Part shown: one piece after another, positions 15,639 to 43,666 of the stretch
How the letters are laid out: every line of letters begins with the position of its first letter
How positions within the stretch are numbered: position 1 is the first letter of the stretch
Assembly: GCA_029938745.1 (NCBI GenBank)
Contig: JAOZUJ010000001.1
Span: 1 to 43,666, forward strand
Direction: 5' to 3'
From: Candidatus Moraniibacteriota bacterium
Lineage (GTDB): Bacteria; Patescibacteriota; Minisyncoccia; Moranbacterales; GCA-2747515
Length of the DNA: 43,666 nucleotides
Notes under the pieces: generated by a model
Seen by the model: the letters and a program-made list of their open reading frames with translations, nothing else
What the model was told of the DNA's origin: nothing
Database searches by the model: none
Made by a program: the position numbers and the translations under genes

Positions 15639-18600
15639 TTATTTCACTGAAGTGATTTTATCTTCTTTGATAACATCAACAATCCACCAATCCACCTGTA
15701 CATCCTCATCTGACTCTTGATTTAATCCAATGACAAAACTTTCACCATCAATAATGTTCTCAACGTGTGCAAAAATCGAACGGTCTGCATCCTTTACTGT
15801 AACAAATACATGACTATTTGCACGCACATCAGTTGTTTGAATAGATATTTCTAATGTGCCTTCTTTGATAACTACAGAGCCAATGTGTTGAGAATCTTCA
15901 TCTTCCATGACTGCAAATTTTCCCGTTGTTAATGCATCGGTTTCAATATCATCTGCAATGATCTTTGTTGCATTAAGTACACCGGCAAGTGTGAGGCCGC
16001 CTTCATCTGTTGTGTATAGAAGATTGTCTTCATCAAGTGCAATTAATAAATCTGTGAGACTTGTTTGTAATTCATCTATTGTGTCTACTTGTGTTTGCAT
16101 TAAACCTACTTTTGAATCTATTGAATCTAATAAATTTGATTGGTTATTTGCATCTTGTTGCATCTGTAAGACATTATCTTGCATTGTTCCATTTTCTGCT
16201 AATTGTGTTCCAAAGATCTTTGCTATTGTTGTAAGTTGTGTATCAATAGAGTCTTGTAATTGTGTGAGAGTCGAAATATTTGCATCTGTCTTTAATGTAT
16301 TTGATGTAATTGTGATATTTTGTTCCTGGATTGCACTTACTGTAAGTGGAATTATATCTGAATAAAACACTCCAAGTACTCCATTGTTTTCTCTCACTAC
16401 TTCTGGGATGACTGTTTGTAACTGCTGTGCCGAAAATCCTATTTTTTTATTTATTCCTACCTCACTATCTTTCCAATTATAACTAATTGGATTTATTTGC
16501 ATAAGCTCACTTAAACCATAATTAAGATTTGTAATGTTTTTCTTGAAATTTGTATCTGATGTTGTCATCACACCATTTGCAGAAAAAACTGTATGCCACC
16601 TCGCTGACCCCGATCCCAGCATCTGTGTTGCATCAGATGCGGGCACAACTTCATAAAGTGAACCGTTGCCAAGCATCATTTGATTTGATGCTGTTGGCTC
16701 TGCATTGTAACCAAGTGCTGTTGAATTTGTGTATACATTTTGATCTTCAAGATAATGTGCAACTGAGCCTTGTGATGTAATATTACCAATTTGATTACCC
16801 TCTGCTAACTCAAGTGTAGTTGTGTCAATAATCTTAAATTGATAAATACCATTGTTAGACAGTCCACCAGGTGGCGTACCTCCCGTTGTAAATCGTAAAT
16901 TTACATAATCCCCTGCATTACCAAAGCTATGTCCTGCCAGTGTAATTCTGTTAGTTGTCACATTAACACTACTGGGTGCAAATGTCTTAGGAGTTCCTGT
17001 ACCGTTAAAATTATTAAATGCTCCATCACCAACAGCAACATTATCATCTCCTTGATTATAAAGTAATGTGCCTCTACCTAATCCTATTACTTCCTCTCCT
17101 GTGTTATACCATAGAGAACTTCTGCCAAATCCAGAAGAATAATTACCAGTATTATTTCGAAGTGCGCCATATCCAAAACCTGAAGCACTATCAGAAGCAT
17201 TATTCATGAGAGCAAAGCTTCCAAATCCAGAAGCTGCTTGACTGGTATTATTATATAGAGCATTATATCCAAATCCAGAAGCATAATTTCCTGTATTACT
17301 TTGTAGAGCATTATATCCAAATCCAGACACATAATCAGCAGTGTTATCCGAAAGAGCATTTGCTCCAAATCCAGAAACATAAAGACCTGTATTGTCATAA
17401 AGTGCACTTGCCCCAAATCCAGAAGCTGCTCCACCAGTGTTATTTCGAAGCGCTTGATATCCAGCTCCAGTAGAATAAAGACCAGTGTTATTTTGTAAAG
17501 CATTGTACCCAACGCCAACTGAGCCCCATCCAGTATTACTTTGTAAAGAATTTACACCAAATCCTGCAGACTGACTACTGGTATGTGATTGCAATGCGTT
17601 GTGTCCAAATGCAACATTTTCATGTCCACTGACATTTGTATTTAATGCATTGATGCCAACTGCCGTATTGCTATTTGTTGTGAGATCATCATTTATACCC
17701 GCACCACTTCCGAGAAAGACACTTGTTGTCCCAGTAATTCCATCAGTAAGACCACTTATCGCACTTGCACCACCACCAGACGTAAATGACACCCAGCTCG
17801 ATCCATCATGCCCTTCAAAATCTGTACCAGTCCATCTGATCGATCCTGCATTTGTATTTGTGGTTGTACCTAAATTTATTGCACCAGCAACCTGTAAGTT
17901 TTCATTTGGCGTAATTGTTCCAATTCCCACATTTCCAGTTCCATTTTCTATCATGAGTCGAGTTAAGTTTTCATCTCTGAACATCAGATTTTCACCCTCA
18001 TCTATATCCTGATGAATTCTCCACTGTTGTGCAGTAAATGTATTTTCAAAATGATATGATGGATCCTTAACACCATCTGGTGATTCACTCTTGATCTGAC
18101 CTGCAACATGTAATTCCTTATTTGGATTATTCACATTACCAATAATCACGCTACTCATTGCATCTCCTGGGGCTAATCGTAAATGTTGCGTTCCTGGTCC
18201 AGTCGTGGCATATGTAGAAATTGTATTTGCATGAATCATCGTTCCTGCACTGCCAGCATATCCAAGTGCAGTACTGTTGACTGTTAAATCCCCTCCATGA
18301 ATAGATAAATTACCATCATTAACAGCTAATTTTGATGCAGATGGAATTAAACCAAATCCAAGAGGAGGCTCTGAACCAACAAACATTTGTCCATTATCAT
18401 TTATGATCATTTCAACTTGACTATCTCCATCTGAATCGAAACCTAAATAATTATCCGTTGTATCGTAACTAATAATACCCTCATTATGTTCCGCACCAAT
18501 ATGAAGCGAACTGGGGCCAAGATAAAGATCTTGCCATCTCAGAGATGATGTGCCTAAATTGTACGTATTATTTAATTCTGGAACAATATCTCCATCTACC

Positions 18601-20753
18601 TGTAACTTGTATTGAGGATTATCTGTGCCAATGCCAACGTGTCCAGAATGTTCAATAACAAAACTTTCTTCTCCATTACTACGATTGATAATTGAGAATC
18701 TGCCAGCATCCTGACCAGGTACAATCGCATCTGTAGCTAATGCTCTAAATCCCCATACACCTCCACCATCTGACTCCAAAATAATGTCAGCAGATTTAGG
18801 CTCATAAGGACCTGGCGGAGGATCTGCATTAGCTTTTACATGAAGCGTGGATAAAGGATTATCTGTTCCAATTCCCACACGTCCATATGGCGTAATTCTC
18901 ATCCTTTCTAAATTATCTGTTCCAAAAATAAGTGGATCAGCTTCATAATTACCAATGATCAAGCCATCTGGGCTTGTGTCACCTGGATTCGATGACCCCT
19001 CATCTCCTAAATTTACAATTTCACTATATCCAGCCAAAGTCGGCAATCCCCATCTCGTTCGCGCCCTCTCTGACCCATGAGCCAACATAGATACTCTTGA
19101 TGCATCTGAGATAACGCCCGTACTTGCAAAATTATTTACACCAAATGTTTGTGTCCATATCCGAGCATCCTGAGCCGTAATAGCATTTTTTGATACTTCA
19201 ATATCTGGACGACTTCTGCCATATGTTGGAAATGTCAACTCATGACTCACATCCCAATCACCGTGAAAATATCGTCCTGCATTTTCTAATGATACGTGTG
19301 GATTATTATCAGTGCCAATGCCAATGTTGCCATTGCCTTTAATAACCATACTATTTTTCATGATTCCATCTAAACCCTTTGTGACAAATTCTATACGACC
19401 AGGTATACCGTTTGTAAAATCACTACCATCAACACGCATACGAATTTGTGCTAATCGATTTAAACTATTACCTTCAAAAGCCATTGCATCTAGGGCTGTA
19501 ACTACATCGCCATTGTGTACTGCCAAGGGATTTTCACTAGTTCCTCTATATCGTTGACCTCCAAAGTAACTTCCCATCCATGGTGTATCTGAATGTGAAA
19601 CACCTGTAAAGCCAGAATGTTTACCGTCTAGCGATTGATGTGTAAACCCTCCTATTGATTTGATACGATCCTCTGCGTAAAGACTTATATTGTAATATTC
19701 AAAAGAAGCATCTGTAAAAATATTTAGTGTAGCGGCGTTAATGTACAATTCTGTATCTGACACGATCTTTCTAATTCCATATTCCCTTTCAATTCCCAAA
19801 TCATCTACAACTTTTAGAATTGTTGTTTTAGTTGTAAGTTCCGATAAAAAATGTGTTCCAATGCCAGTAACCTTCGCTGCACTATCTACAGTAATAGTTC
19901 CTGTTCCATTTTTTATATCTGATGGATTAATGTGCAATGATGCTTGCGGACTACTAGTCCCAATCCCTACATTTCCATCCTCAGTAATTCTCACTCTTTC
20001 AACTCCATTTGTTTTGAGGAGTAATGCATAATTATCATTTGTACCTAATTGTGCAATTTGTCCAAATGAATTACCATTTTGTGCAAAAAAATTACCATTA
20101 ACTACATCAGGGATTGGTTTGTTTATCCAACTTGTTCCATCAAAGTACATGATGTCTCCACTTGTTGGATTTTGTGATATTTCTACTCCATCAATATCTG
20201 TCATTGTAATTGTACTGCCTGCATTTCCACAGCTCCAATGATCTTTTTTTGCATTCCAATACAACATCTCGTTATCATTTTCACACTGGATTCTTCCTGA
20301 ACTTGATACTTTTAATCCTCCCTTATTTACTGTGCCAAAAACTGTTTTCGATGGTAATTTACATTCCCACTGATTTCTCCCTTTTTGCCATTGTAATACC
20401 CTGTCATCTTTTGTGCATTTGAGATAATTATCTTCTACTGTGACAGAATTTTCATCATAGAGAAAGTGTGGGGATGTGTTTACTTCTTTTATGTATATTT
20501 TTTGAGTTGTTGTATCTGTATTTTGTGCAATTTGCGTATCTTGTTGTTGTGTTGCATCTTGTTGTACTTGCTCTTGTGCACGTACACGTACATGATCCAT
20601 AAAACCGACCACAATTAATGTGATCACTAATGCAGTTGTGACTGTTTTGAAATGATATTGTTTTTTTATTCTTTGTTTTGTTTTGTATGTTGAACGTTCT
20701 TTATGTAAAAAGTTGGGAGATGCTATTTTCTTTTTATGCATAGGGAGATGCAT
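15639..20753 (-). CDS. giant (1704 aa) membrane-anchored tail-fibre-like surface protein with a peptidase-S74-type intramolecular chaperone module
   Basis: N-terminal basic region plus one TM/signal anchor (VTTALVITLIVVGF). Five G(N/R/H)(V/I)GIGT...L(H/Q)V motifs. About 14 tandem 16-aa GFGxNALxxNTGxxxS repeats. SDTNFKKNITNLNYGLSELMQINPISYNWKD...GFSAQQLQTVIPEVV matches the S74 chaperone-of-endosialidase signature. A coiled-coil region and a terminal beta-rich region follow. Confidence 0.85.
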   Translation of the reverse strand: MHLPMHKKKIASPNFLHKERSTYKTKQRIKKQYHFKTVTTALVITLIVVGFMDHVRVRAQEQVQQDATQQQDTQIAQNTDTTTQKIYIKEVNTSPHFLYDENSVTVEDNYLKCTKDDRVLQWQKGRNQWECKLPSKTVFGTVNKGGLKVSSSGRIQCENDNEMLYWNAKKDHWSCGNAGSTITMTDIDGVEISQNPTSGDIMYFDGTSWINKPIPDVVNGNFFAQNGNSFGQIAQLGTNDNYALLLKTNGVERVRITEDGNVGIGTSSPQASLHINPSDIKNGTGTITVDSAAKVTGIGTHFLSELTTKTTILKVVDDLGIEREYGIRKIVSDTELYINAATLNIFTDASFEYYNISLYAEDRIKSIGGFTHQSLDGKHSGFTGVSHSDTPWMGSYFGGQRYRGTSENPLAVHNGDVVTALDAMAFEGNSLNRLAQIRMRVDGSDFTNGIPGRIEFVTKGLDGIMKNSMVIKGNGNIGIGTDNNPHVSLENAGRYFHGDWDVSHELTFPTYGRSRPDIEVSKNAITAQDARIWTQTFGVNNFASTGVISDASRVSMLAHGSERARTRWGLPTLAGYSEIVNLGDEGSSNPGDTSPDGLIIGNYEADPLIFGTDNLERMRITPYGRVGIGTDNPLSTLHVKANADPPPGPYEPKSADIILESDGGGVWGFRALATDAIVPGQDAGRFSIINRSNGEESFVIEHSGHVGIGTDNPQYKLQVDGDIVPELNNTYNLGTSSLRWQDLYLGPSSLHIGAEHNEGIISYDTTDNYLGFDSDGDSQVEMIINDNGQMFVGSEPPLGFGLIPSASKLAVNDGNLSIHGGDLTVNSTALGYAGSAGTMIHANTISTYATTGPGTQHLRLAPGDAMSSVIIGNVNNPNKELHVAGQIKSESPDGVKDPSYHFENTFTAQQWRIHQDIDEGENLMFRDENLTRLMIENGTGNVGIGTITPNENLQVAGAINLGTTTNTNAGSIRWTGTDFEGHDGSSWVSFTSGGGASAISGLTDGITGTTSVFLGSGAGINDDLTTNSNTAVGINALNTNVSGHENVAFGHNALQSHTSSQSAGFGVNSLQSNTGWGSVGVGYNALQNNTGLYSTGAGYQALRNNTGGAASGFGASALYDNTGLYVSGFGANALSDNTADYVSGFGYNALQSNTGNYASGFGYNALYNNTSQAASGFGSFALMNNASDSASGFGYGALRNNTGNYSSGFGRSSLWYNTGEEVIGLGRGTLLYNQGDDNVAVGDGAFNNFNGTGTPKTFAPSSVNVTTNRITLAGHSFGNAGDYVNLRFTTGGTPPGGLSNNGIYQFKIIDTTTLELAEGNQIGNITSQGSVAHYLEDQNVYTNSTALGYNAEPTASNQMMLGNGSLYEVVPASDATQMLGSGSARWHTVFSANGVMTTSDTNFKKNITNLNYGLSELMQINPISYNWKDSEVGINKKIGFSAQQLQTVIPEVVRENNGVLGVFYSDIIPLTVSAIQEQNITITSNTLKTDANISTLTQLQDSIDTQLTTIAKIFGTQLAENGTMQDNVLQMQQDANNQSNLLDSIDSKVGLMQTQVDTIDELQTSLTDLLIALDEDNLLYTTDEGGLTLAGVLNATKIIADDIETDALTTGKFAVMEDEDSQHIGSVVIKEGTLEISIQTTDVRANSHVFVTVKDADRSIFAHVENIIDGESFVIGLNQESDEDVQVDWWIVDVIKEDKITSVK
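16325..16559 (-). other. peptidase S74-like autoproteolytic chaperone domain inside 15639..20753
   Basis: The Ser codon at 16557-16559 starts the SD(x)3K(x)NI...NPISYNWK...IGFSAQQLQ.VIPEVV pattern known from endosialidase/tail-spike C-terminal chaperone domains. Confidence 0.65.
17020..17670 (-). repeat. in-frame 48-nt (16-aa) tandem repeat block, about 13-14 units
   Basis: ccaaatcc-type unit starts at 17077, 17125, 17173, 17221, 17269, 17317, 17365, 17413, 17461, 17509, 17557 and 17605, exactly 48 nt apart. Confidence 0.85.
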
Positions 20754-35117: not shown

Positions 35118-35714
35118 TTATTGCACAACATTCACAACCTGTGTCACAATGATCAATGCCATGATAGCAATAATCAATCCAATAATTGCATACTTGATTA
35201 TATTTTTTGCTGTATCTGCACGTGTTGAATCACCCCCTGATACCATATACATAATTCCACCCACGACAAGCATGAGAACTGATAATGCACCCACAAGTCC
35301 TGATGCCACCTTTATTGTGCTTATAATAATGTCTGACAGTGATTTTGTAGCTGTAACAGGATTGTTTACATCTGATTCAGTTATCTGAAAAATTTCTGAC
35401 AAAAATGCTGGTGCGGCGAGTGCTAATGCGAGACCAATAAGTGCAGCTGTCACTGCCTTTTTTGCAAGTTCAACACGACCACTATCTCCACCTGACGTAA
35501 TATATAAAATACCACCTACCACAATCATGAGAACTGCTAATGCTGCAACAATATTTTGTACTCCCACCAACACAGCTCCAAGAAAATCATTCACATTGCC
35601 GTAACCAATTGGATTGTCAAATGTTTGTGCATAAATATCCCCCACAAAAAACGATGCGTACAATACTATTGCAAAACTTGGTACAATTAAATATCGTAAA
35701 TATTCTTTTTTCAT
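35118..35714 (-). CDS. VirB2/TrbC-like pilin paralog, fused two-domain form
   Basis: 198 aa; signal peptide (ASFFVGDIYAQT). Two copies of the core: LAVLMIVVGGILYITSGGDSGRVELAKKAV... and LSVLMLVVGGIMYMVSGGDSTRADTAKNII... Confidence 0.75.
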   Translation of the reverse strand: MKKEYLRYLIVPSFAIVLYASFFVGDIYAQTFDNPIGYGNVNDFLGAVLVGVQNIVAALAVLMIVVGGILYITSGGDSGRVELAKKAVTAALIGLALALAAPAFLSEIFQITESDVNNPVTATKSLSDIIISTIKVASGLVGALSVLMLVVGGIMYMVSGGDSTRADTAKNIIKYAIIGLIIAIMALIIVTQVVNVVQ

Positions 35715-35744
35715 ATATGTTTTATTATTTTTTATTTTTATTAT

Positions 35745-36083
35745 TTATACAATTCCAAGTGCTTCACTAATAAAATACACGATCATATACGAAACCAATG
35801 CCACAATAAGTCCTACGATTGAATATGTTAGCATTTTTTTTGCTGTCTCTGTACGTGTTGAATCCCCGCCTGATGTGATGTACATTATGCCAGATACAAT
35901 AATCATAAGAACTGCTAACGAGGCAAGAAATGCAAGAAAAAAATTAATCATATCTCTTATAACTGTATTTATGTCTGTTTGTGTTGCAAGTCCGTGATTG
36001 TCTGTTGGCCTCTTTGCTTGTGCACTCACAAAAATAGGTACTAGAAGTATTGTTGATAAAATTGTAAAAAAAATATTTTTCAT
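35745..36083 (-). CDS. VirB2/TrbC-like pilin paralog
   Basis: 112 aa; signal peptide ending VSAQA; core LAVLMIIVSGIMYITSGGDSTRTETAKKMLTYSIVGLIVAL. Confidence 0.75.
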   Translation of the reverse strand: MKNIFFTILSTILLVPIFVSAQAKRPTDNHGLATQTDINTVIRDMINFFLAFLASLAVLMIIVSGIMYITSGGDSTRTETAKKMLTYSIVGLIVALVSYMIVYFISEALGIV

Positions 36084-36117
36084 AACTCTTATAAATAATT
36101 GATAAAAGTATTATAAC

Positions 36118-36450
36118 TTACCATGCGCCGAGCTTATCTCCAATCACCGTTACAATAACATAAGCGAGTAATGCAACAACAAGACCTGCAATTGAATATG
36201 TTAACATTTTTTTTGCTGTTTCCGCTCTTTGTGTATCGCCTCCTGATGTTATGTACATAATACCAGATATTATGATCATCAATATTGCCAATGATGCAAT
36301 GATACCTGCTACAAGGTCAATTATATCTCCGATAAGTGCATCAGCATTAATTTCATTTGCTAATCCATGCTGACCAGGCTTAGTTAATGCATTTGTAGTC
36401 ACGGGCAAGGCAATAATTGTACAAAAAATTGCATAAAAAATCTTTTTCAT
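36118..36450 (-). CDS. VirB2/TrbC-like pilin paralog
   Basis: 110 aa; signal peptide; core LAILMIIISGIMYITSGGDTQRAETAKKMLTYSIAGLVVAL. Confidence 0.75.
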   Translation of the reverse strand: MKKIFYAIFCTIIALPVTTNALTKPGQHGLANEINADALIGDIIDLVAGIIASLAILMIIISGIMYITSGGDTQRAETAKKMLTYSIAGLVVALLAYVIVTVIGDKLGAW

Positions 36451-36477
36451 AATTTTATTTTATTATTTATATTATGT

Positions 36478-36843
36478 TTAATTCCACGTACCACCAACAG
36501 TTGTGCCGATGAGTATAACAATCGCATAGGCCAGCACTGCTATAACAAAACCAATAACAGCATATACCATAATTTTTTTAGCTGTTTCTGCTCTTTGTGC
36601 ATCACCGCCTGAAGTCATATACATTATACCAGATATTACAATCATCAACACAGCTAAACTTGCAATAATCACCGCCACAAAACCAACCATTTTTTCAATG
36701 ACTGGTAGAATATAATTATCATTGGTGGCTGTCCCCCCTGGCAAGCCAGTGTCTCCGCTGCTTGGCACTGTGATTTGCGCATTGACGATTTGTGGCAACA
36801 CAACAATCACCAGTGCACCAAGTATATAAAAATATTTTTTCAT
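36478..36843 (-). CDS. VirB2/TrbC-like pilin paralog
   Basis: 121 aa; signal peptide ending VNAQ; core LAVLMIVISGIMYMTSGGDAQRAETAKKIMVYAVIGFVIAV. Confidence 0.75.
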   Translation of the reverse strand: MKKYFYILGALVIVVLPQIVNAQITVPSSGDTGLPGGTATNDNYILPVIEKMVGFVAVIIASLAVLMIVISGIMYMTSGGDAQRAETAKKIMVYAVIGFVIAVLAYAIVILIGTTVGGTWN

Positions 36844-36853
36844 ATTATTTTTT

Positions 36854-36901
36854 TATTTTTCATATATGTATTATACACCATACAAAACAAAAAAACAAAG
36901 A
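36854..36901 (-). repeat. 48-nt duplicated promoter module, copy 1
   Basis: Identical to 37333-37380. On the minus strand it carries TTGTTT (36893-36898), 17 nt, TATAAT (36870-36875). Confidence 0.6.
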
Positions 36902-36929
36902 CTGTGTACCATACACGTCTTTGTTTTTT
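36889..36929 (-). terminator. terminator after pilin gene 36951..37301
   Basis: caaagac(t)gtgta / tacacgtctttg stem (36896-36923) flanked by an A-run and a T-run. Confidence 0.65.
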
Positions 36930-36950
36930 GTTTTTATTTTTTTGTCATGC

Positions 36951-37301
36951 TTATACTCCAAGCATAGCACTTACTGTCTTTACAATTACATAACTGAGGA
37001 GTGCCACAATTAAGCCAACAATTGAATATGTAAGCCATTTTTTTGCTGTTCCAATTCGAGATTCATCGCCACCAGATGTGATGTACATAATTCCAGCAAC
37101 AACAATCATCAGTACTGACAATGATGCAAGAAATGCCAAAAACCAGTTGATAGCAGAAACAATAATATCATTTACATTTGTTGAATCTGGCAATGATCCT
37201 GGATTTGAACTCCCTGGATCATATTGTGCACCGACAATACTTGGCACTATAAGTACCATTGCTGTCATTGCATAAAATGCATTTTTTATTTTTTTTATCA
37301 T
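36951..37301 (-). CDS. VirB2/TrbC-like pilin paralog
   Basis: 116 aa; signal peptide ending VGAQ; core LSVLMIVVAGIMYITSGGDESRIGTAKKWLTYSIVGLIVAL; strong GGGAGG RBS. Confidence 0.75.
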   Translation of the reverse strand: MIKKIKNAFYAMTAMVLIVPSIVGAQYDPGSSNPGSLPDSTNVNDIIVSAINWFLAFLASLSVLMIVVAGIMYITSGGDESRIGTAKKWLTYSIVGLIVALLSYVIVKTVSAMLGV

Positions 37302-37332
37302 TTTTGAGCACCTCCCTTCTTTGTTTTTATTT

Positions 37333-37380
37333 TATTTTTCATATATGTATTATACACCATACAAAACAAAAAAACAAAGA
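37333..37380 (-). repeat. 48-nt duplicated promoter module, copy 2
   Basis: Identical to 36854-36901; TATAAT at 37349-37354 and TTGTTT at 37372-37377 on the minus strand. Confidence 0.6.
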
Positions 37381-37424
37381 TGCGGCATAATATGTATCTT
37401 TATTTTGCATACTGTTTGAGTATG

Positions 37425-37694
37425 TTAAACAAAACCAACAATCGTTTTTACAATGATGAGTGATAAAATAGCAATTGATAAACCAATAACACCTGCCCAC
37501 AATGCCTTTTTTGCTGTTTGCACACGATTTGCATCCCCACCAGATGTCATGTACATAATGCCCGCAACAACAATTACCAGCACAGCAATAACACCAACGA
37601 GCGTAACAACAAATTGTAGCACACTCATCACGAGACTACTGAGTTTTGGGGCTGTATCTAGCGGGCCTGCCTGCACAATGTTAATTAGTCGCAT
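37425..37694 (-). CDS. VirB2/TrbC-like pilin paralog lacking an N-terminal signal peptide
   Basis: 89 aa; core IAVLVIVVAGIMYMTSGGDANRVQTAKKALWAGVIGLSIAI; begins 13 nt after the upstream stop with no obvious RBS. Confidence 0.6.
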   Translation of the reverse strand: MRLINIVQAGPLDTAPKLSSLVMSVLQFVVTLVGVIAVLVIVVAGIMYMTSGGDANRVQTAKKALWAGVIGLSIAILSLIIVKTIVGFV

Positions 37695-37707
37695 AAATTA
37701 TTTATAA

Positions 37708-38148
37708 TCAATTTGTTGGACATGTAAATGTCCACATCCTGCCAAATATTGGCACATCTAATCCTCCCTCACTTACAACGCTCGTTTTGTTGAATACAGT
37801 GTTCAATAAAAATGTAATAATTAAAAATGCTGTCAACATAATTATAAGGCCAATGAGAGCATTTTTTATAGCCGATTTTGCCATTGTTGTCATTTGCTGA
37901 TTTCCTGCTGAACTAATATATATAATACCTGCAACAACAATCACTACAATCGCAGCAACTGCCATAATATTTTTGAAAAAATCAATGATATTCCACATAC
38001 CTTGTGCAAGTTCACAGATTGTACAAGCATCCACATCTGTACCTGTAACATTATTGCCGCACGGCACAATATTTGCTTGTGCATTATATAATGGAACCAT
38101 TATAAAAAGTAAAGCAAAACTCAATAAAAATATTCTCACAAATTTCAT
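37708..38148 (-). CDS. divergent Cys-containing VirB2/TrbC-like pilin paralog with C-terminal extension
   Basis: 146 aa; signal peptide ending YNAQA; CGNN...C..C in the mature N-terminus. The core is changed to VVAGIIYISSAGNQQMTTMAKSAIKNALIGL. Extra 35-aa tail ends FTCPTN. Confidence 0.65.
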   Translation of the reverse strand: MKFVRIFLLSFALLFIMVPLYNAQANIVPCGNNVTGTDVDACTICELAQGMWNIIDFFKNIMAVAAIVVIVVAGIIYISSAGNQQMTTMAKSAIKNALIGLIIMLTAFLIITFLLNTVFNKTSVVSEGGLDVPIFGRMWTFTCPTN

Positions 38149-40245: not shown

Positions 40246-40773
40246 TTATTGATTAATTTCTGCACTATTTTCATTAAACCACAGTGACCACTCAGCAATG
40301 AGCTGTTGTCCATCAATTTGCTTTTGCGTACCCCCTACAATATAACCTGTGCTATTATCAGCATCACCTATCTCAATCATCTCACGTCCACTCGCATATA
40401 TTTCGAAACCCTTGACTAATTTATTTTTAAACATATTTTGTATTTCGGGATGTATATAATTCAAATATTCATCACTAACACGCTTTCCTAATGCAACACC
40501 CTCTTCACTACTTGCAAAAAATTCCTCATTTATTTCTTTTTTTAATTCTGGTTCTAAATCTTCGTAATCAGTTAACTCCATAGCTTTATATAATAAAAGT
40601 ATAGATCGATTAAGATTCTCATTGTCAGTCTTGTATTGCGCAGGAACATCAGTAGATTGTATAAAAATTTTATTACCACCTTGATACTGCTCAGGAGCCT
40701 CTGTTTTCTTCACATATCCAAAAATTGCAATACCTGCAATTAACAAAAATCCAATAACAACAAAAAGTTTCAT
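40246..40773 (-). CDS. hypothetical membrane-anchored/secreted protein
   Basis: 175 aa; N-terminal hydrophobic helix FVVIGFLLIAGIAIFGY then an acidic soluble domain. Confidence 0.5.
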   Translation of the reverse strand: MKLFVVIGFLLIAGIAIFGYVKKTEAPEQYQGGNKIFIQSTDVPAQYKTDNENLNRSILLLYKAMELTDYEDLEPELKKEINEEFFASSEEGVALGKRVSDEYLNYIHPEIQNMFKNKLVKGFEIYASGREMIEIGDADNSTGYIVGGTQKQIDGQQLIAEWSLWFNENSAEINQ

Positions 40774-40910
40774 ACTTTATATTTTATTATTTATATATTT
40801 ATACTATCACAAAAAATATCTCTGTGGAATACAAAAAATCACGTGATTAATTATGCGATTTTTTGTCAGTGATATTGAGCTTCGCTTTTGACTGTGTAAA
40901 TTTCACATCT

Positions 40911-40974
40911 CTCCTTCGCAAGCTATAGCGGACTGCGTCCGCCATAGCTCGCTTCGGCGAGCGACGGCGGGGAG
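40911..40974. repeat. GC-rich double-hairpin element in a 470-nt non-coding gap
   Basis: gctatagcgga-ctgcg-tccgccatagc (40922-40948) and (g)ctcgc-ttcg-gcgag(c) with a C(UUCG)G tetraloop (about 40948-40962), bracketed by ctcc/ggag. Confidence 0.6.
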
Positions 40975-41245
40975 GTTGGGACGATGTTAGAACTTTTTTA
41001 CTATAACTTCCGTTTAGCTACAAAGTTCACTTAATTTTTCTCTTCACAGACTTTATAGTGTCAATAATAATTTAAATATTAATTCTTTTTCGTTCACATT
41101 ATCTACTCGGTGTTCTTGTAACTCGCTCATCAACTTCAATTAAAGCTTGCTGCGCATCTTACGGAAAAAACAGATTGTACTAAACACACAAACAAATCAT
41201 ATTATGCTTACCCCTCCAATGCGCGAGTAAGCGTTGCTTCTTAAA

Positions 41246-43450
41246 TTAGAAATCTTCTGGCATGTCCTCTTTCTTATTATCTTTACGACTATTCCTAATC
41301 TCCTCATAAGTAGTATCTAAAGCCTTACTTGCATCTAGCTTTGCTTGATCAAAATCTACTCTAACCAACAAAGGTCGTTCACTTTTAATTGCTTTGCCAG
41401 AAGCAAGAAACTCTCTAGTTCTTAGGTTAGGAATAGCTTTAACATGTTCTGGACTATACACACCACCTAAATAATCAAGGCTTGTTTTATCTACGAGCCC
41501 ATAAGTGAAATATGTATTACATTGAGACAATATTGTCTTACTTACCAAGGCTGTGCGTTGAGACACAATAAGTAATCCAACACCATACTTTCGACCCTGT
41601 AGTGCAATTTGACCAATTCGACCAACAACCCACTGTGTATCAGCATCAAACCCAGCACTGTAGACTTCAGGTATGATTGTGTGGGCTTCCTCAAGAACAA
41701 TCATTATCCTCCTTGCTTTTCGATTCTCACGGGCCCACCTCATTATCGATGATAAATACATCTCGGTGATTCTTAATGTTGCTCGTGTGTTTGTTATTTC
41801 TGACAATTCAAAAATACCAAGATTGTTTTCTTCACTCATTAAGAAATCATCAACTTGTTTTTCAACGTCTGATTCAATAGTTTTAAGAAACTCTTGTAAT
41901 GTGGCTCGTTCTTTTTTAGCACCATACTCTCCAACAGCGACAGCCTGGAGTACCTCCTCCAGTTCTTCAATTTTTTCTTCAGACAACCTGAGTGGTTGTG
42001 GTTTTGAATCTGCTAATCTTGGTGCATATTCCCCAGTAAAATCGACACAAAAAACCTTAACTTCTTCACTGAGAGCATTTTTTATAACATCTAATACAAG
42101 TTCAGTTTTACCAGTACCAGTTACACCTAATATTGCGGCGTGGTACTCAACAAGGTTATTTAAATCTATAGGAACTTCAAAACTAGTTGATGGTATTTTG
42201 CCTACAGTGAAGTTGCCTTTTTCCATTTTTTGTTCAAGAACATCATCTTTATCGACCAAAAACACAGGCTGATTCATTTCTGGTAACCATGCAAACTTTT
42301 GAAATCCGTGCTCCTCATCAAAAGAGCCTAACTGTGAAGTAGAAACAATGTGCATTCCATAAGGACTGGTTTGAAAATTCTCTTCATCTGTTTTTGCATC
42401 TAGTATTTGATAGTAAACTTTTTTACCTTGAACTTTACAGAAAACAACCATACCCTCTTCAAGGTTAAGCCCTCTTACAACCTGAAATCTTATATTTCCT
42501 ATAGAAGAGTTTTCAACAACCAAACCCGCGATTTCTTTTGTTTTATCTTCGCCACTCAAAGTTTTGACCAGCTCTTTGGATAACTCGGAGTTCATGCTCG
42601 CATAAACATTACCAAAGAGTATTTCTTTATTATTTTCATCACTATATTCACACAACAACCCTGTTCCTACTACTCCCTCATTCTGAACTTGCGTAAACAA
42701 TGGCAGTATGTGAACTATTTTGTTATTAGATAATTGAGATACATACACTTTTCCATGTTCCCATGATGTCTCTGTATCAATTAGATTAACCTTTACTATA
42801 TTTGGGTCATCAACACGTAATATTGAACCCACCACATCTTTTTCCTCTATAATTAACGCTGTACTGAATAATTTATATATTTGCAAAGTAAGTTCAACTG
42901 GTTTAATAACAACCATAAATAACCAAAAGCCCATTATCAAAAGAGCTGTATCAATTTTATCTTGATAGAACCCAAGCGAGCTTATTAAAACAACCATTGT
43001 AAAGAGTATCTCCCCTCTTCCAAGTTTATTACTTAGTTGGTATGTAATTATGCCAACTGGCGATTGTTGTCCGTCACTTCTTTTAAAAATAGCAACTAGG
43101 GATAGTATTACAACGACTAAAGATATGCCGATAGCAACCCAATACAATATTGAGAGAACTATTGTAAAATGTTTGACAGATACCAAGCTGACGGGAGCTA
43201 GTATAAGGATAGTTGCAATTGCATTTGCGAGGGCATCTTTTGGCGGAGTAAAGAAAGGAGTTGTGACTAGAGTAAACAACCAATATGTTACTGCTGCCAA
43301 CAGCCATAAACCTTGTTCTGTACCAAATGGAGAAAGAGTTCCAGTGGCTACAACAAAAACAATAATAGCTAACACAGTATTTGCGACAAAAACACCCACA
43401 CGAGACTTTTGTTTTAAATTGTCTATTGCTGTATTAGAAATCATAATCAT
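41246..43450 (-). CDS. membrane-anchored HerA/FtsK-superfamily (DUF87-like) P-loop ATPase
   Basis: 734 aa; N-terminal about 200 aa with roughly five hydrophobic helices. Walker A GVTGTGKT (about 42103-42126); Walker B IMIVLEEAH (about 41681-41707), where the EEAH form is characteristic of HerA-type ATPases. Confidence 0.75.
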   Translation of the reverse strand: MIMISNTAIDNLKQKSRVGVFVANTVLAIIVFVVATGTLSPFGTEQGLWLLAAVTYWLFTLVTTPFFTPPKDALANAIATILILAPVSLVSVKHFTIVLSILYWVAIGISLVVVILSLVAIFKRSDGQQSPVGIITYQLSNKLGRGEILFTMVVLISSLGFYQDKIDTALLIMGFWLFMVVIKPVELTLQIYKLFSTALIIEEKDVVGSILRVDDPNIVKVNLIDTETSWEHGKVYVSQLSNNKIVHILPLFTQVQNEGVVGTGLLCEYSDENNKEILFGNVYASMNSELSKELVKTLSGEDKTKEIAGLVVENSSIGNIRFQVVRGLNLEEGMVVFCKVQGKKVYYQILDAKTDEENFQTSPYGMHIVSTSQLGSFDEEHGFQKFAWLPEMNQPVFLVDKDDVLEQKMEKGNFTVGKIPSTSFEVPIDLNNLVEYHAAILGVTGTGKTELVLDVIKNALSEEVKVFCVDFTGEYAPRLADSKPQPLRLSEEKIEELEEVLQAVAVGEYGAKKERATLQEFLKTIESDVEKQVDDFLMSEENNLGIFELSEITNTRATLRITEMYLSSIMRWARENRKARRIMIVLEEAHTIIPEVYSAGFDADTQWVVGRIGQIALQGRKYGVGLLIVSQRTALVSKTILSQCNTYFTYGLVDKTSLDYLGGVYSPEHVKAIPNLRTREFLASGKAIKSERPLLVRVDFDQAKLDASKALDTTYEEIRNSRKDNKKEDMPEDF

Positions 43451-43518
43451 ATTTAATGAATTAACTCTTTACCCATCTATGTTGATTTTTTATTACACCC
43501 ACAAACTTCTTGCTATAT

Positions 43519-43585: not shown

Positions 43586-43642
43586 CGAGCACTTCATTGC
43601 CTGCGATCAAGGTGGGGACGGAGTATTTATTTGAAATAAAAG

Positions 43643-43666
43643 AATTACATAATTAATTATGTAATT
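43643..43666. repeat. 24-nt perfect AT-rich palindrome at the window edge
   Basis: aattacataattaattatgtaatt equals its own reverse complement. Confidence 0.7.

What the first reader, a model, noticed from the sequence alone, without database searches (positions are those of the whole stretch)
41246..43450. HerA/FtsK-type ATPase fused to an N-terminal multi-pass membrane domain, with no NurA partner
**Seen in sequence:**
- Residues 1 to about 200 contain roughly five hydrophobic helices.
- The remainder contains a Walker A GVTGTGKT and a Walker B IMIVLEEAH.
- No nuclease gene (NurA-like) or Sir2/DUF4297-type partner is adjacent in the window.

**Established knowledge:** The h-h-h-h-EEAH Walker B is typical of HerA/DUF87 ATPases, which are hexameric translocases related to FtsK and VirB4/VirD4. 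Soluble HerA usually pairs with NurA or with defence effectors.

**Inference:** A membrane-embedded HerA would be positioned to pump DNA or protein across the membrane. It is the only candidate motor near the pilin array.
Basis: partly seen in the sequence, partly recalled or inferred. Interest (0 to 1): 0.6.

Follow-up and report, generated by a model that had tools for sequence, protein, structure and literature searches.

The report
Stand-alone membrane-embedded HerA ATPase cassette
This gene encodes a ring-motor ATPase of the HerA type fused to its own six-helix membrane module of unknown fold. It is a rare, horizontally moving single-gene cassette that usually sits among anti-phage genes, so it is an untested candidate one-protein defence and not the motor of the nearby pilin genes.

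Summary
Window 41246-43450 (-) is an intact 734-aa ORF with three parts:
- a conserved N-terminal membrane domain (about residues 1-200)
- beta-barrels (about 200-400)
- a HerA/DUF87 ATPase with Walker A GVTGTGKT and Walker B IMIVLEEAH.

Sequence and fold searches place the soluble part with HerA, closest to the SIR2-HerA, DUF4297-HerA and NurA-HerA structures. It does not group with VirB4, TrwB or FtsK. The membrane domain models at pLDDT 95 and matches nothing in PDB or BFVD. It occurs only at the N-terminus of this family.

The link to the pilin array is not supported:
- No pilin gene lies near any of 90 relatives' loci.
- The three congeners inspected keep the pilin/SBP/methyltransferase block, and none of the 11 congeners searched has this gene.
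- The genome has a VirB4-like ATPase on another contig.

The gene behaves as mobile accessory cargo. A 91%-identical copy shares only the gene plus about 50 bp on each side. There is no conserved neighbour among 531 flanking proteins. Flanks are often R-M, Shedu, PDC-S65, Abi or Fic genes. Here it lies in a variable slot beside tRNA-Ser genes.

My best reading (about 0.55) is a single-protein membrane HerA defence. The function is untested. This scan has already noted the same family on other DNA.

The parts
41246..43450 (-). Complete gene for the 734-aa membrane-fused HerA-like ATPase (stop codon at 41246-41248)
   Evidence: ORF list and translation. More than 1300 full-length homologues. dN/dS 0.19.
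42851..43450 (-). N-terminal membrane domain, residues 1-200. It is a compact helical bundle with six probable membrane passes. Conserved residues and motifs are R17, W49, P65-F-x-P-P-K-D72, L-G-R-G-E147, G160-x-Y162, W176 and P184.
   Evidence: Hydropathy scan. Alignments A1 and A3. Model with pLDDT 95.3 and pTM 0.89. No significant fold match in PDB or BFVD. No Pfam family covers it. The profile finds it only at the N-terminus of this family.
42251..42850 (-). Beta-barrel region, residues about 201-400 (HAS-barrel-like, apparently two barrels). It links the membrane domain to the ATPase.
   Evidence: DSSP strands 206-398 in the model. PDB HerA alignments begin at query residue about 356. Foldseek alignments to HerA chains span 435-609 columns.
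41306..42250 (-). HerA/DUF87 RecA-like ATPase, residues about 401-715. It contains the invariant GRKYGVG (R620, probable arginine finger) and the SQRTALVSK motif.
   Evidence: Pfam DUF87 5.9e-15. NCBIfam HerA models. PADLOC HerA 4e-36. PDB 8wiv 5e-21. Invariant columns in A1.
42104..42127 (-). Walker A motif GVTGTGKT (residues 442-449)
   Evidence: Translation. G442, T444, G445, K448 and T449 are invariant in A1.
41681..41707 (-). Walker B motif IMIVLEEAH (residues 582-590)
   Evidence: Translation. L586-E-E-A-H590 is invariant in A1. It aligns to VVLEEAHT of 8wiv.
41249..41305 (-). Disordered acidic C-terminal tail, ending ...KKEDMPEDF
   Evidence: pLDDT below 50 for residues 726-734. Related members end in an SSB-tip-like D-(I/L)-(P/L)-F. 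The genome's own SSB ends EDVPF.
41187..43492 (.). The only segment that this genome shares with the 91%-identical copy in an unrelated metagenomic contig. This is the extent of the transferred cassette: the gene, 42 bp upstream and 59 bp downstream.
   Evidence: blastn and tblastx of L001 and L002 against the window and the whole genome.
40824..40993 (+). Distal copy of an imperfect direct repeat of about 150 bp. It holds a 24-bp palindrome at 40837-40860, a GC-rich hairpin and a degenerate bit of the tRNA-Ser 3' end.
   Evidence: Local alignment score 69, against 23.9 +- 4.6 (maximum 41) for 300 shuffles.
43631..43666 (+). Start of the proximal repeat copy, with the perfect palindrome AATTACATAATTAATTATGTAATT at 43643-43666. 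It continues on contig C114 into tRNA-Ser(cga).
   Evidence: 36-bp, 97% overlap with the start of C114. tRNAs on C114. Repeat alignment.

Best explanation
The gene encodes a self-contained, horizontally mobile member of an uncharacterised family, membrane domain + beta-barrels + HerA ATPase. It most likely works as a one-protein defence against invading DNA (phage or plasmid) at the cytoplasmic membrane.

Shown:
- It is a HerA-clade P-loop ATPase with intact catalytic motifs.
- A conserved six-pass membrane module is fused to the barrel (effector-binding) side of the motor.
- It travels as a single gene with no conserved partner.
- It is rare and patchy across phyla, and none of the congeners searched has it.
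- It tends to lie among R-M and other defence genes or on mobile elements.

Inferred:
- Like other HerAs it forms a hexameric ring, so six membrane modules (about 36 helices) would form a collar coaxial with the motor channel.
- The ring loads on free or incoming DNA.
- ATP-driven movement is passed to its own membrane module. That module stands in for the soluble Sir2, DUF4297 or NurA effectors of other HerA systems.
- The outcome is either membrane permeabilisation (abortive infection) or blocking or expelling the entering DNA.

I favour the membrane-effector version, but the data do not separate the two.
For: HerA identity:
- Pfam DUF87, 56.4 bits against a cut-off of 23.2.
- NCBIfam anti-phage HerA models are the best hits, 5e-22.
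- PADLOC HerA 4e-36.
- Best PDB match is SIR2-HerA 8wiv, 5e-21.
- All 50 top Foldseek matches are HerA chains.

The membrane module is part of the family:
- It is conserved end to end in 30 and in 46 sequences.
- The model reaches pLDDT 95.
- The profile hits 584 cluster representatives. The domain is N-terminal in all 150 best hits that were listed.

Single-gene mobility:
- Only the gene plus about 50 bp on each side is shared with a 91%-identical copy.
- 531 neighbour proteins from 80 genomes form 508 clusters, the largest with 5 members and none adjacent to the gene.
- No Pfam family occurs in more than 2 of the 124 immediate neighbours.
- None of the 11 same-genus and 13 same-family genomes searched has the gene.
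- Phyla are intermixed on the tree, 22 label changes against a minimum of 13.

Defence or mobile-element company:
- EcoRI-like methylase plus GmrSD/HNH.
- Shedu SduA (1e-129) plus a Pycsar-like block.
- Type I R-M plus a serine recombinase.
- Eco47II R-M, Fic and zeta toxin.
- PDC-S65 SIR2, overlapping the gene by 4 bp.
- A PLD/DrmC-like nuclease 16 bp downstream, and UvrD-PDDEXK.
- Restriction enzyme, Abi, Fic and NERD genes on a Bradyrhizobium conjugative plasmid.
- The families seen twice among immediate neighbours are mostly R-M, nuclease or helicase families.

This genome and its genus:
- In congener G003 the same slot holds a ThsB-TIR gene.
- A rare 1273-aa variant carries weak DUF559-like and Cas4/PD-(D/E)XK-like C-terminal domains.

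Precedent for membrane segments in HerA systems: a SIR2 partner with a C-terminal TM domain is reported in bioRxiv 10.1101/2024.10.22.618286.
Against: - No experiment exists, and no paper on this architecture was found.
- The defence-island association is guilt by association and was not tested against a matched control.
- Some loci are flanked only by housekeeping genes. So is the window's downstream side (SBP, methyltransferase).
- The family is not in PADLOC v2 as a system. The best HerA model covers only part of the protein.
- The oligomeric state and any pore are inferred, because only monomers could be modelled.
- The adjacent Shedu and PDC-S65 genes are self-sufficient systems, so they do not show a functional partnership.
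- No copy was found in 50,697 phage records, and only 7 plasmid records carry one. The vehicle of transfer is therefore unknown.
Confidence: 0.55

Rival explanations
1. It is a trans-membrane DNA (or protein) pump for transfer or uptake. It would be a HerA-built analogue of FtsK/SpoIIIE, TraB, VirD4/TrwB or archaeal CedB, possibly serving the VirB2-like pilin array.
For: - An N-terminal membrane anchor plus a ring ATPase is the architecture of TrwB, FtsK and SpoIIIE (established knowledge).
- There are weak P-loop-level hits to TrwB_AAD_bind (22.6 bits), FtsK_SpoIIIE, CedD (1.4e-12) and CedB.
- Seven T4SS_pilin genes lie 3-8 kb away in the window.
- Seven plasmids carry a copy, four of them typed as conjugative.
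Against: - No pilin or T4SS gene lies near the gene in 90 relatives' loci.
- The three congeners inspected keep the pilin block, and none of the 11 congeners searched has the gene.
- The genome has a VirB4-like ATPase with a small membrane-protein gene just upstream on C161.
- No VirB4, TrwB or FtsK structure is among the top 50 fold matches.
- VirB4, CedB and CedD scores are far below their cut-offs.
- No relaxase, oriT or clt-type context recurs.
Confidence: 0.15
2. It is selfish cargo of mobile elements with a non-immune role, such as entry exclusion against related elements, or element maintenance or segregation at the membrane.
For: - Serine recombinases and ParB lie nearby in two CPR loci.
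- It occurs on large Bradyrhizobium plasmids.
- It has cassette-like boundaries, and direct repeats flank it beside tRNA-Ser genes.
Against: - Most loci have no recombinase or plasmid backbone nearby.
- The window's islet has no integrase.
- tRNA proximity across 80 loci is no greater than the local background: 5 loci observed, 5.3 expected.
- Exclusion of incoming DNA overlaps in mechanism with the defence reading.
Confidence: 0.12
3. It is a housekeeping DNA-repair HerA that works with an unlinked nuclease.
For: - Archaeal and bacterial NurA-HerA are among the sequence and fold matches.
- Some family members carry an SSB-tip-like tail that could recruit host nucleases.
Against: - The genome has no NurA.
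- None of the close relatives searched has the gene.
- It occurs in about 0.1% of species representatives.
- A polytopic membrane anchor is not expected for end resection.
- The copy 91% identical in DNA sequence has unrelated flanks, which shows recent transfer.
Confidence: 0.05
4. It is a protein-translocating ATPase, like the T7SS EccC/EssC membrane-anchored FtsK-like motors.
For: EccC/EssC share the layout of an N-terminal TM region plus FtsK-HerA superfamily ATPases (established knowledge). There is a very weak EccCb hit, E 0.19.
Against: - It has a single ATPase domain with HerA-specific barrels. The best matches are all HerA.
- No WXG100 or T7SS genes appear among the neighbours.
Confidence: 0.03

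Closest known systems
Anti-phage HerA of the SIR2-HerA (Nezha / Gao_Her_SIR) and DUF4297-HerA (Gao_Her_DUF) systems
   Same: - These give the best sequence and fold matches: 8wiv/8wld 5e-21, 9c1m, 8xau and 8ziq.
- They share the Walker A, hhhhEEAH, GRKYG and SQR motifs, and the barrel-plus-RecA-like layout.
- They share defence-island surroundings.
   Different: - There is no obligatory Sir2 or DUF4297 partner.
- A 200-residue polytopic membrane domain sits at the N-terminus, on the face where those effectors dock.
- Identity is only 14-21%.
- NCBIfam equivalog scores are 78 and 72 bits against cut-offs of 850 and 800.
NurA-HerA DNA end-resection complex (archaea, Deinococcus, Thermotoga)
   Same: The same ATPase clade and HAS-barrel fold (4d2i, 9x1m).
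   Different: - The genome has no NurA, and no NurA, Mre11 or Rad50 family is among the recurrent neighbour families in relatives.
- The protein is membrane-embedded.
- It is an accessory, horizontally moving gene.
Membrane-anchored ring translocases FtsK/SpoIIIE, TrwB/VirD4 and crenarchaeal CedB/CedD
   Same: The overall logic is the same: an N-terminal membrane segment followed by a hexameric P-loop motor of the FtsK-HerA superfamily. There are weak P-loop-region hits.
   Different: - The ATPase clade is different, because fold matches are HerA only.
- The membrane domain is different and larger, with no structural match.
- There are no T4SS, Ced or division partners.
Defence effectors with membrane-spanning modules (CBASS Cap14/Cap15, Pycsar PycTM, and TM-bearing SIR2 of some Gao19 loci)
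   Same: The concept is a membrane module serving as the killing or arrest arm of an immune system. A TM-bearing SIR2 partner of HerA has been reported.
   Different: - No sequence or fold similarity was detected.
- Here the membrane module is fused to the motor itself.
- Its effector role is inferred and has not been shown.

Membership tests
HerA/DUF87 clade of the FtsK-HerA superfamily | P-loop ATPase with Walker A GxxGxGK[ST] and Walker B hhhhEEAH, matching Pfam DUF87 above its gathering score | tested here: met
   GVTGTGKT and IMIVLEEAH are present. PF01935 scores 56.4 bits against 23.2.
HerA/DUF87 clade of the FtsK-HerA superfamily | N-terminal HAS-type beta-barrel preceding the ATPase, with overall fold similarity to solved HerA | tested here: met
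   Beta-strand domains span residues 206-398 in the model. The top 50 Foldseek matches are all HerA, E down to 5e-21, target-normalised TM-score up to 0.75.
HerA/DUF87 clade of the FtsK-HerA superfamily | Hexameric ring with a trans-acting arginine finger | not testable with these tools
   The invariant GRKYG (R620) aligns with EGRKYG of 8wiv. The oligomer could not be modelled.
NurA-HerA repair system | Adjacent or genomic NurA nuclease partner | tested here: not met
   The 92.6%-complete genome has no PF09376 match. No NurA family is among the recurrent families of the 124 immediate neighbours in relatives.
SIR2-HerA / DUF4297-HerA anti-phage systems | Operonic Sir2 or DUF4297 effector, and a match to the NCBIfam equivalog | tested here: not met
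   - NF042944 scores 78 bits against 850, and NF042943 scores 72 against 800.
- No such gene is in the window.
- A SIR2 neighbour occurs in 2 of 80 loci. It is a full-length PDC-S65, which is itself a single-gene candidate system.
VirB4 / VirD4 (TrwB) T4SS ATPases | Match to VirB4/CagE or TrwB family models, and co-location with T4SS genes | tested here: not met
   - TIGR00929 scores 13.5 bits against 643.
- The TrwB_AAD_bind hit covers only the 52-residue P-loop stretch.
- No pilin lies near the gene in 90 relatives' loci.
- No VirB4 or TrwB structure is in the top 50 fold matches.
FtsK/SpoIIIE | FtsK_SpoIIIE motor domain above the Pfam cut-off | tested here: not met
   PF01580 scores 19.5 bits against 24, and only over residues 428-474.
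Ced DNA-import ATPases CedB/CedD | Equivalog-level match | tested here: not met
   CedD scores 47 bits against 600. CedB scores 32 bits against 700. The presence of CedA-type partners was not tested.
Any system already catalogued in PADLOC v2 | Full-length match to a PADLOC model of a defined or candidate system | tested here: not met
   The best hit is a generic HerA model, 122.7 bits, and its best stretch covers residues 529-689 only. By contrast, neighbours match PDC-S65 and SduA over their full length.

The most novel reading that the evidence does not exclude
A new class of one-protein immunity. A HerA hexamer is built into the membrane through a previously unseen six-helix module. It either catches invading DNA as it crosses the membrane, or opens its 36-helix collar to collapse the membrane potential once the motor engages foreign DNA ends. 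No separate sensor, nuclease or NADase would be needed. In some members an SSB-tip-like C-terminal tail additionally recruits, or acts as a decoy for, SSB-binding proteins.
Probability: 0.4. Interest if true: 0.75.

Novelty: new variant of a known kind. Interest (0 to 1): 0.55.

Why it matters
HerA motors are known in DNA repair (with NurA) and in two-gene phage defences (with Sir2 or DUF4297). In all of these a soluble partner does the damage.

A family in which the motor is fused to a conserved membrane module of unknown fold, and moves between phyla as a single gene, would add two things:
- a membrane-acting branch to HerA-based immunity
- a compact candidate system that is simple to test.

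It would also show how a DNA-translocating ring can be coupled to a membrane domain other than those of FtsK or TrwB.

For this genome, the result removes the gene from the proposed pilin 'apparatus'. It marks the slot between the methyltransferase gene and the tRNA-Ser genes as a variable, defence-type hotspot in this CPR genus.

Tried and rejected
1. Pilin or T4SS motor. Rejected.
2. A conserved small downstream partner gene. 20 of 78 downstream neighbours are same-strand ORFs of 80-150 aa, which equals the background share (23.5%). They are not homologous to each other. The only related pair is a spurious ORF over a tRNA.
3. A general tRNA-linked integration site. 5 of 80 loci have a tRNA within 1.5 kb, against 5.3 expected from the local density. 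The tRNA-Ser adjacency here is anecdotal.
4. Fold identification of the membrane domain. Foldseek against PDB and BFVD gave nothing (best E 1.0 and 0.35).
5. Stand-alone or differently fused copies of the membrane domain. The profile search lists many short hits. Among the eight whose sequences I read, the short ones run co-linearly with the start of the full-length protein and break off, so they look like truncated gene calls rather than stand-alone proteins. This could not be checked on contigs. The only other architectures seen were C-terminal extensions (P0219, P0243).
6. Nuclease domains in the 1273-aa variant. These are only weakly supported: DUF559 at 0.004, PDDEXK_1 at 0.002, Cas4 at 8e-5, and no PDB sequence hit.
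7. Literature. Four full-text searches found no description of a membrane-fused HerA family. Iyer et al. 2004 is not held.
8. Phage carriage. No match in 50,697 phage records.
9. A formal defence-enrichment statistic could not be computed, because the family-scan tool returns only tallies for large sets.
Full report
**Observation**

The ORF at 41246..43450 on the minus strand is real: 734 codons, ATG start, no internal stops. Walker A GVTGTGKT lies at residues 442-449 and Walker B IMIVLEEAH at 582-590.

The first 200 residues are strongly hydrophobic. They model as eight helices. Six of these are probably membrane passes, because the K/R-rich N-terminus and the ATPase must both be cytoplasmic.

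The window is the entire contig C104 of a 1.18-Mb, 197-contig, 36% GC assembly of CPR/Patescibacteria type. The gene ends 216 bp from the contig edge.

**What the protein is**

The soluble part belongs to the HerA clade:
- Pfam DUF87 at 5.9e-15, above the gathering score. TrwB and FtsK models touch only the P-loop.
- The best NCBIfam hits are the two anti-phage HerA models and the archaeal HerA models. All are far below equivalog cut-offs. CedD, CedB and VirB4 score much weaker.
- PADLOC HerA models reach 4e-36 but cover only part of the protein.
- PDB sequence hits are all HerA: SIR2-HerA 8wiv, HerA-DUF4297, HerA-NurA and Sulfolobus HerA.
- A full-length AlphaFold model built from 30 homologues (pLDDT 81) gives 50 of 50 top Foldseek hits to HerA chains. 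None is a VirB4, TrwB or FtsK structure.

The region between the membrane domain and the ATPase is beta-rich, consistent with HAS-type barrels.

**The membrane domain**

- It is conserved across the family. Conserved elements are R17, W49, the P-F-x-P-P-K-D loop, L-G-R-G-E, G-x-Y, W176 and P184.
- Modelled alone with 46 sequences it reaches pLDDT 95.3 and pTM 0.89.
- It has no significant structural neighbour in PDB (best E 1.0) or in BFVD (best E 0.35). No Pfam family covers it.
- A profile of this domain, searched against 1.84 billion representatives, finds 584 proteins at E <= 1e-3. In the 150 best hits listed, the domain is always N-terminal. Full-length members are about 700-760 aa.
- Many hits are shorter. 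The short ones whose sequences I read run co-linearly with the full-length protein and break off, so they look like truncated gene calls.
- Two longer variants were seen. An 815-aa protein ends in DEEIPF. A 1273-aa protein has a C-terminal extension with weak DUF559-like and Cas4/PD-(D/E)XK-like matches.

**Family and mobility**

- More than 1300 full-length homologues exist at 45-90% identity.
- In one-genome-per-species data, 199 of 185,579 species carry a relative. They span Patescibacteria, Alphaproteobacteria (the majority), Acidobacteriota, Gemmatimonadota, Planctomycetota, Chloroflexota, Bacillota, Actinomycetota and others.
- Phyla are intermixed on a tree. The window's protein groups with Woesebacteria and Staskawiczbacteria copies, next to a deltaproteobacterial MAG.
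- None of the 11 same-genus and 13 same-family genomes searched has the gene.
- A metagenomic contig carries a copy 91% identical in DNA sequence, yet shares nothing else with this genome. Homology runs from 42 bp upstream of the start codon to 59 bp past the stop codon (window 43492..41187). tblastx of the rest of that locus against the whole genome finds nothing.
- dN/dS between the two copies is 0.19, with all three modules constrained.

**Neighbourhood**

- Across 80 genome loci, the 531 proteins within four genes of the HerA gene fall into 508 clusters. The largest has 5 members, none of them adjacent.
- No Pfam family occurs in more than 2 of the 124 immediate neighbours. The families that occur twice are mostly R-M, nuclease or helicase families: N6_Mtase, N6_N4_Mtase, HsdM_N, Eco57I, Mrr_cat, UvrD, PDDEXK_1 and SIR2_2.
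- Annotated contexts show the following:
  - EcoRI-like methylase plus GmrSD/HNH
  - a full-length Shedu SduA plus a Pycsar-like block
  - type I R-M plus a serine recombinase
  - Eco47II R-M, Fic and zeta toxin
  - a full-length PDC-S65 SIR2 overlapping the gene by 4 bp
  - a PLD/DrmC-like nuclease
  - UvrD-PD-(D/E)XK
  - restriction enzyme, Abi, Fic and NERD genes on a conjugative Bradyrhizobium plasmid.
- Some loci are purely housekeeping.
- No phage record carries the gene.
- A recurrent small downstream ORF and a general tRNA association were both tested and rejected.

**This genome's locus**

- The congeners inspected share the block NusA ... pilins ... solute-binding protein-methyltransferase.
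- In two of them, different genes follow in each genome, and then tRNA-Ser(gga) and pyruvate kinase. The third differs again and carries a Thoeris ThsB-TIR gene in this slot.
- In this genome the tRNA-Ser/pyruvate kinase block is on contig C114. Its first 36 bases overlap the window's last 36 at 97%.
- The gene therefore sits in a variable slot with tRNA-Ser(cga) and tRNA-Ser(gga) upstream, and no effector gene there.
- An imperfect direct repeat of about 150 bp flanks the gene. It holds a palindrome, a GC-rich hairpin and a degenerate piece of the tRNA 3' end. The alignment score is 69 against 24 +- 4.6 for shuffles.
- The genome has no NurA.

**The pilin link**

- The seven small genes at 35118-38148 are T4SS_pilin/VirB2-like.
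- An HMM built from them finds no hit near the HerA gene in 90 relatives' loci.
- The three congeners inspected keep the pilin block, and none of the 11 congeners searched has the gene.
- The genome encodes a VirB4-like ATPase on C161 and another TM-anchored DUF87/TrwB-like ATPase on C16.
- The proximity in this window is best read as coincidence.

**Mechanism**

The membrane domain joins directly to the first barrel (residues about 198 to 206). In a HerA-like hexamer the barrel face is where NurA, Sir2 and DUF4297 dock in solved complexes (established knowledge). That face would then lie against the inner leaflet, with the motor channel perpendicular to the membrane.

Two readings follow:
- The membrane collar is the effector, giving permeabilisation and abortive infection once the motor engages foreign DNA.
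- The ring intercepts or expels DNA that is entering the cell.

Both are inferences. I favour a defence role (0.55) because of the cassette behaviour, the company the gene keeps, the clade's closest relatives and the rare nuclease-fused variant. Rival readings are a transfer or uptake pump (0.15), a selfish mobile-element function (0.12), repair (0.05) and protein secretion (0.03).

**Novelty**

Four full-text searches found no description of this architecture. Pfam, NCBIfam and PADLOC have no model for the whole protein or for its membrane domain.

Earlier notes of this scan reached the same reading for relatives in two other genomes. The family is therefore not new to the scan. I checked each of the claims I reuse independently here.

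Noticed in passing
window 41249-41305 (C-terminal tail); homologues P0004, P0006, P0009, P0069, P0243 and others: 15 of 120 family members end in an acidic D-(I/L)-(P/L)-F tip (for example DDDIPF, PDDIPF, PEDLLF). A distant 815-aa member ends DEEIPF. This resembles the conserved C-terminal tip of bacterial SSB. This genome's own SSB ends EDVPF. The window's protein ends EDMPEDF, a degenerate form. The tail might recruit SSB-binding enzymes, mimic SSB, or auto-inhibit the motor.
   Followed up: partly
window 43643-43666 and 40837-40860; other contigs of the genome: A family of 24-bp palindromes (consensus AATYACRTRATTAATYAYGTRATT) occurs at 16 sites in the genome, allowing up to 5 mismatches. 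Shuffled sequence gives 0-3 sites. Two copies flank the HerA gene. They could be an operator or a terminator-like element.
   Followed up: partly
window 43631-43666 joined to contig C114:1-304: The contig end overlaps the start of C114 by 36 bp at 97%. C114 begins with tRNA-Ser(cga) and tRNA-Ser(gga), followed by pyruvate kinase. This matches the gene order in congeners, so the two contigs are probably adjacent.
   Followed up: partly
window 40246-40773 (-): A 175-aa protein with an N-terminal hydrophobic segment has no Pfam or PADLOC hit and no counterpart in the syntenic region of three congeners. It is a second lineage-specific gene in the same variable slot. It is not shared with the 91%-identical HerA locus.
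   Followed up: partly
L106:2614-3021 (same-genus genome G003, equivalent slot): The variable region beyond the conserved methyltransferase gene in a congener contains a Thoeris ThsB TIR-like gene (8.7e-17) among about 10 unannotated genes. This suggests the slot is a defence hotspot in this genus.
   Followed up: partly
P0219 (1273 aa, from the representative library): A rare family member carries a C-terminal extension of about 480 aa with weak DUF559/Vsr-like (E 0.004) and Cas4/PD-(D/E)XK-like (8e-5 in PADLOC, 0.002 in Pfam) matches. It appears to be a membrane-HerA-nuclease fusion.
   Followed up: partly
window 15639-20753 (-): A giant 1704-aa protein with one N-terminal hydrophobic segment has a Peptidase_S74 'chaperone of endosialidase' domain (8e-13) and a weak K1-lyase C-terminal match. 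These are features of phage tail spikes or fibres.
   Followed up: no
window 35118-38148 (-); genome contigs C90 and C99: An array of seven VirB2/T4SS_pilin paralogues includes one tandem-duplicated 198-aa gene and an unlisted 90-aa ORF at 37428-37697. Two more pilin-like ORFs lie elsewhere in the genome. The VirB4-like ATPase is on a different contig (C161:5543-7426).
   Followed up: partly
Plasmid hits H1-H6 (Bradyrhizobium): Most plasmid-borne copies match only from residue 128 or 289 onward, or are split into two pieces. They may be 5'-truncated or frameshifted, that is, decaying.
   Followed up: no
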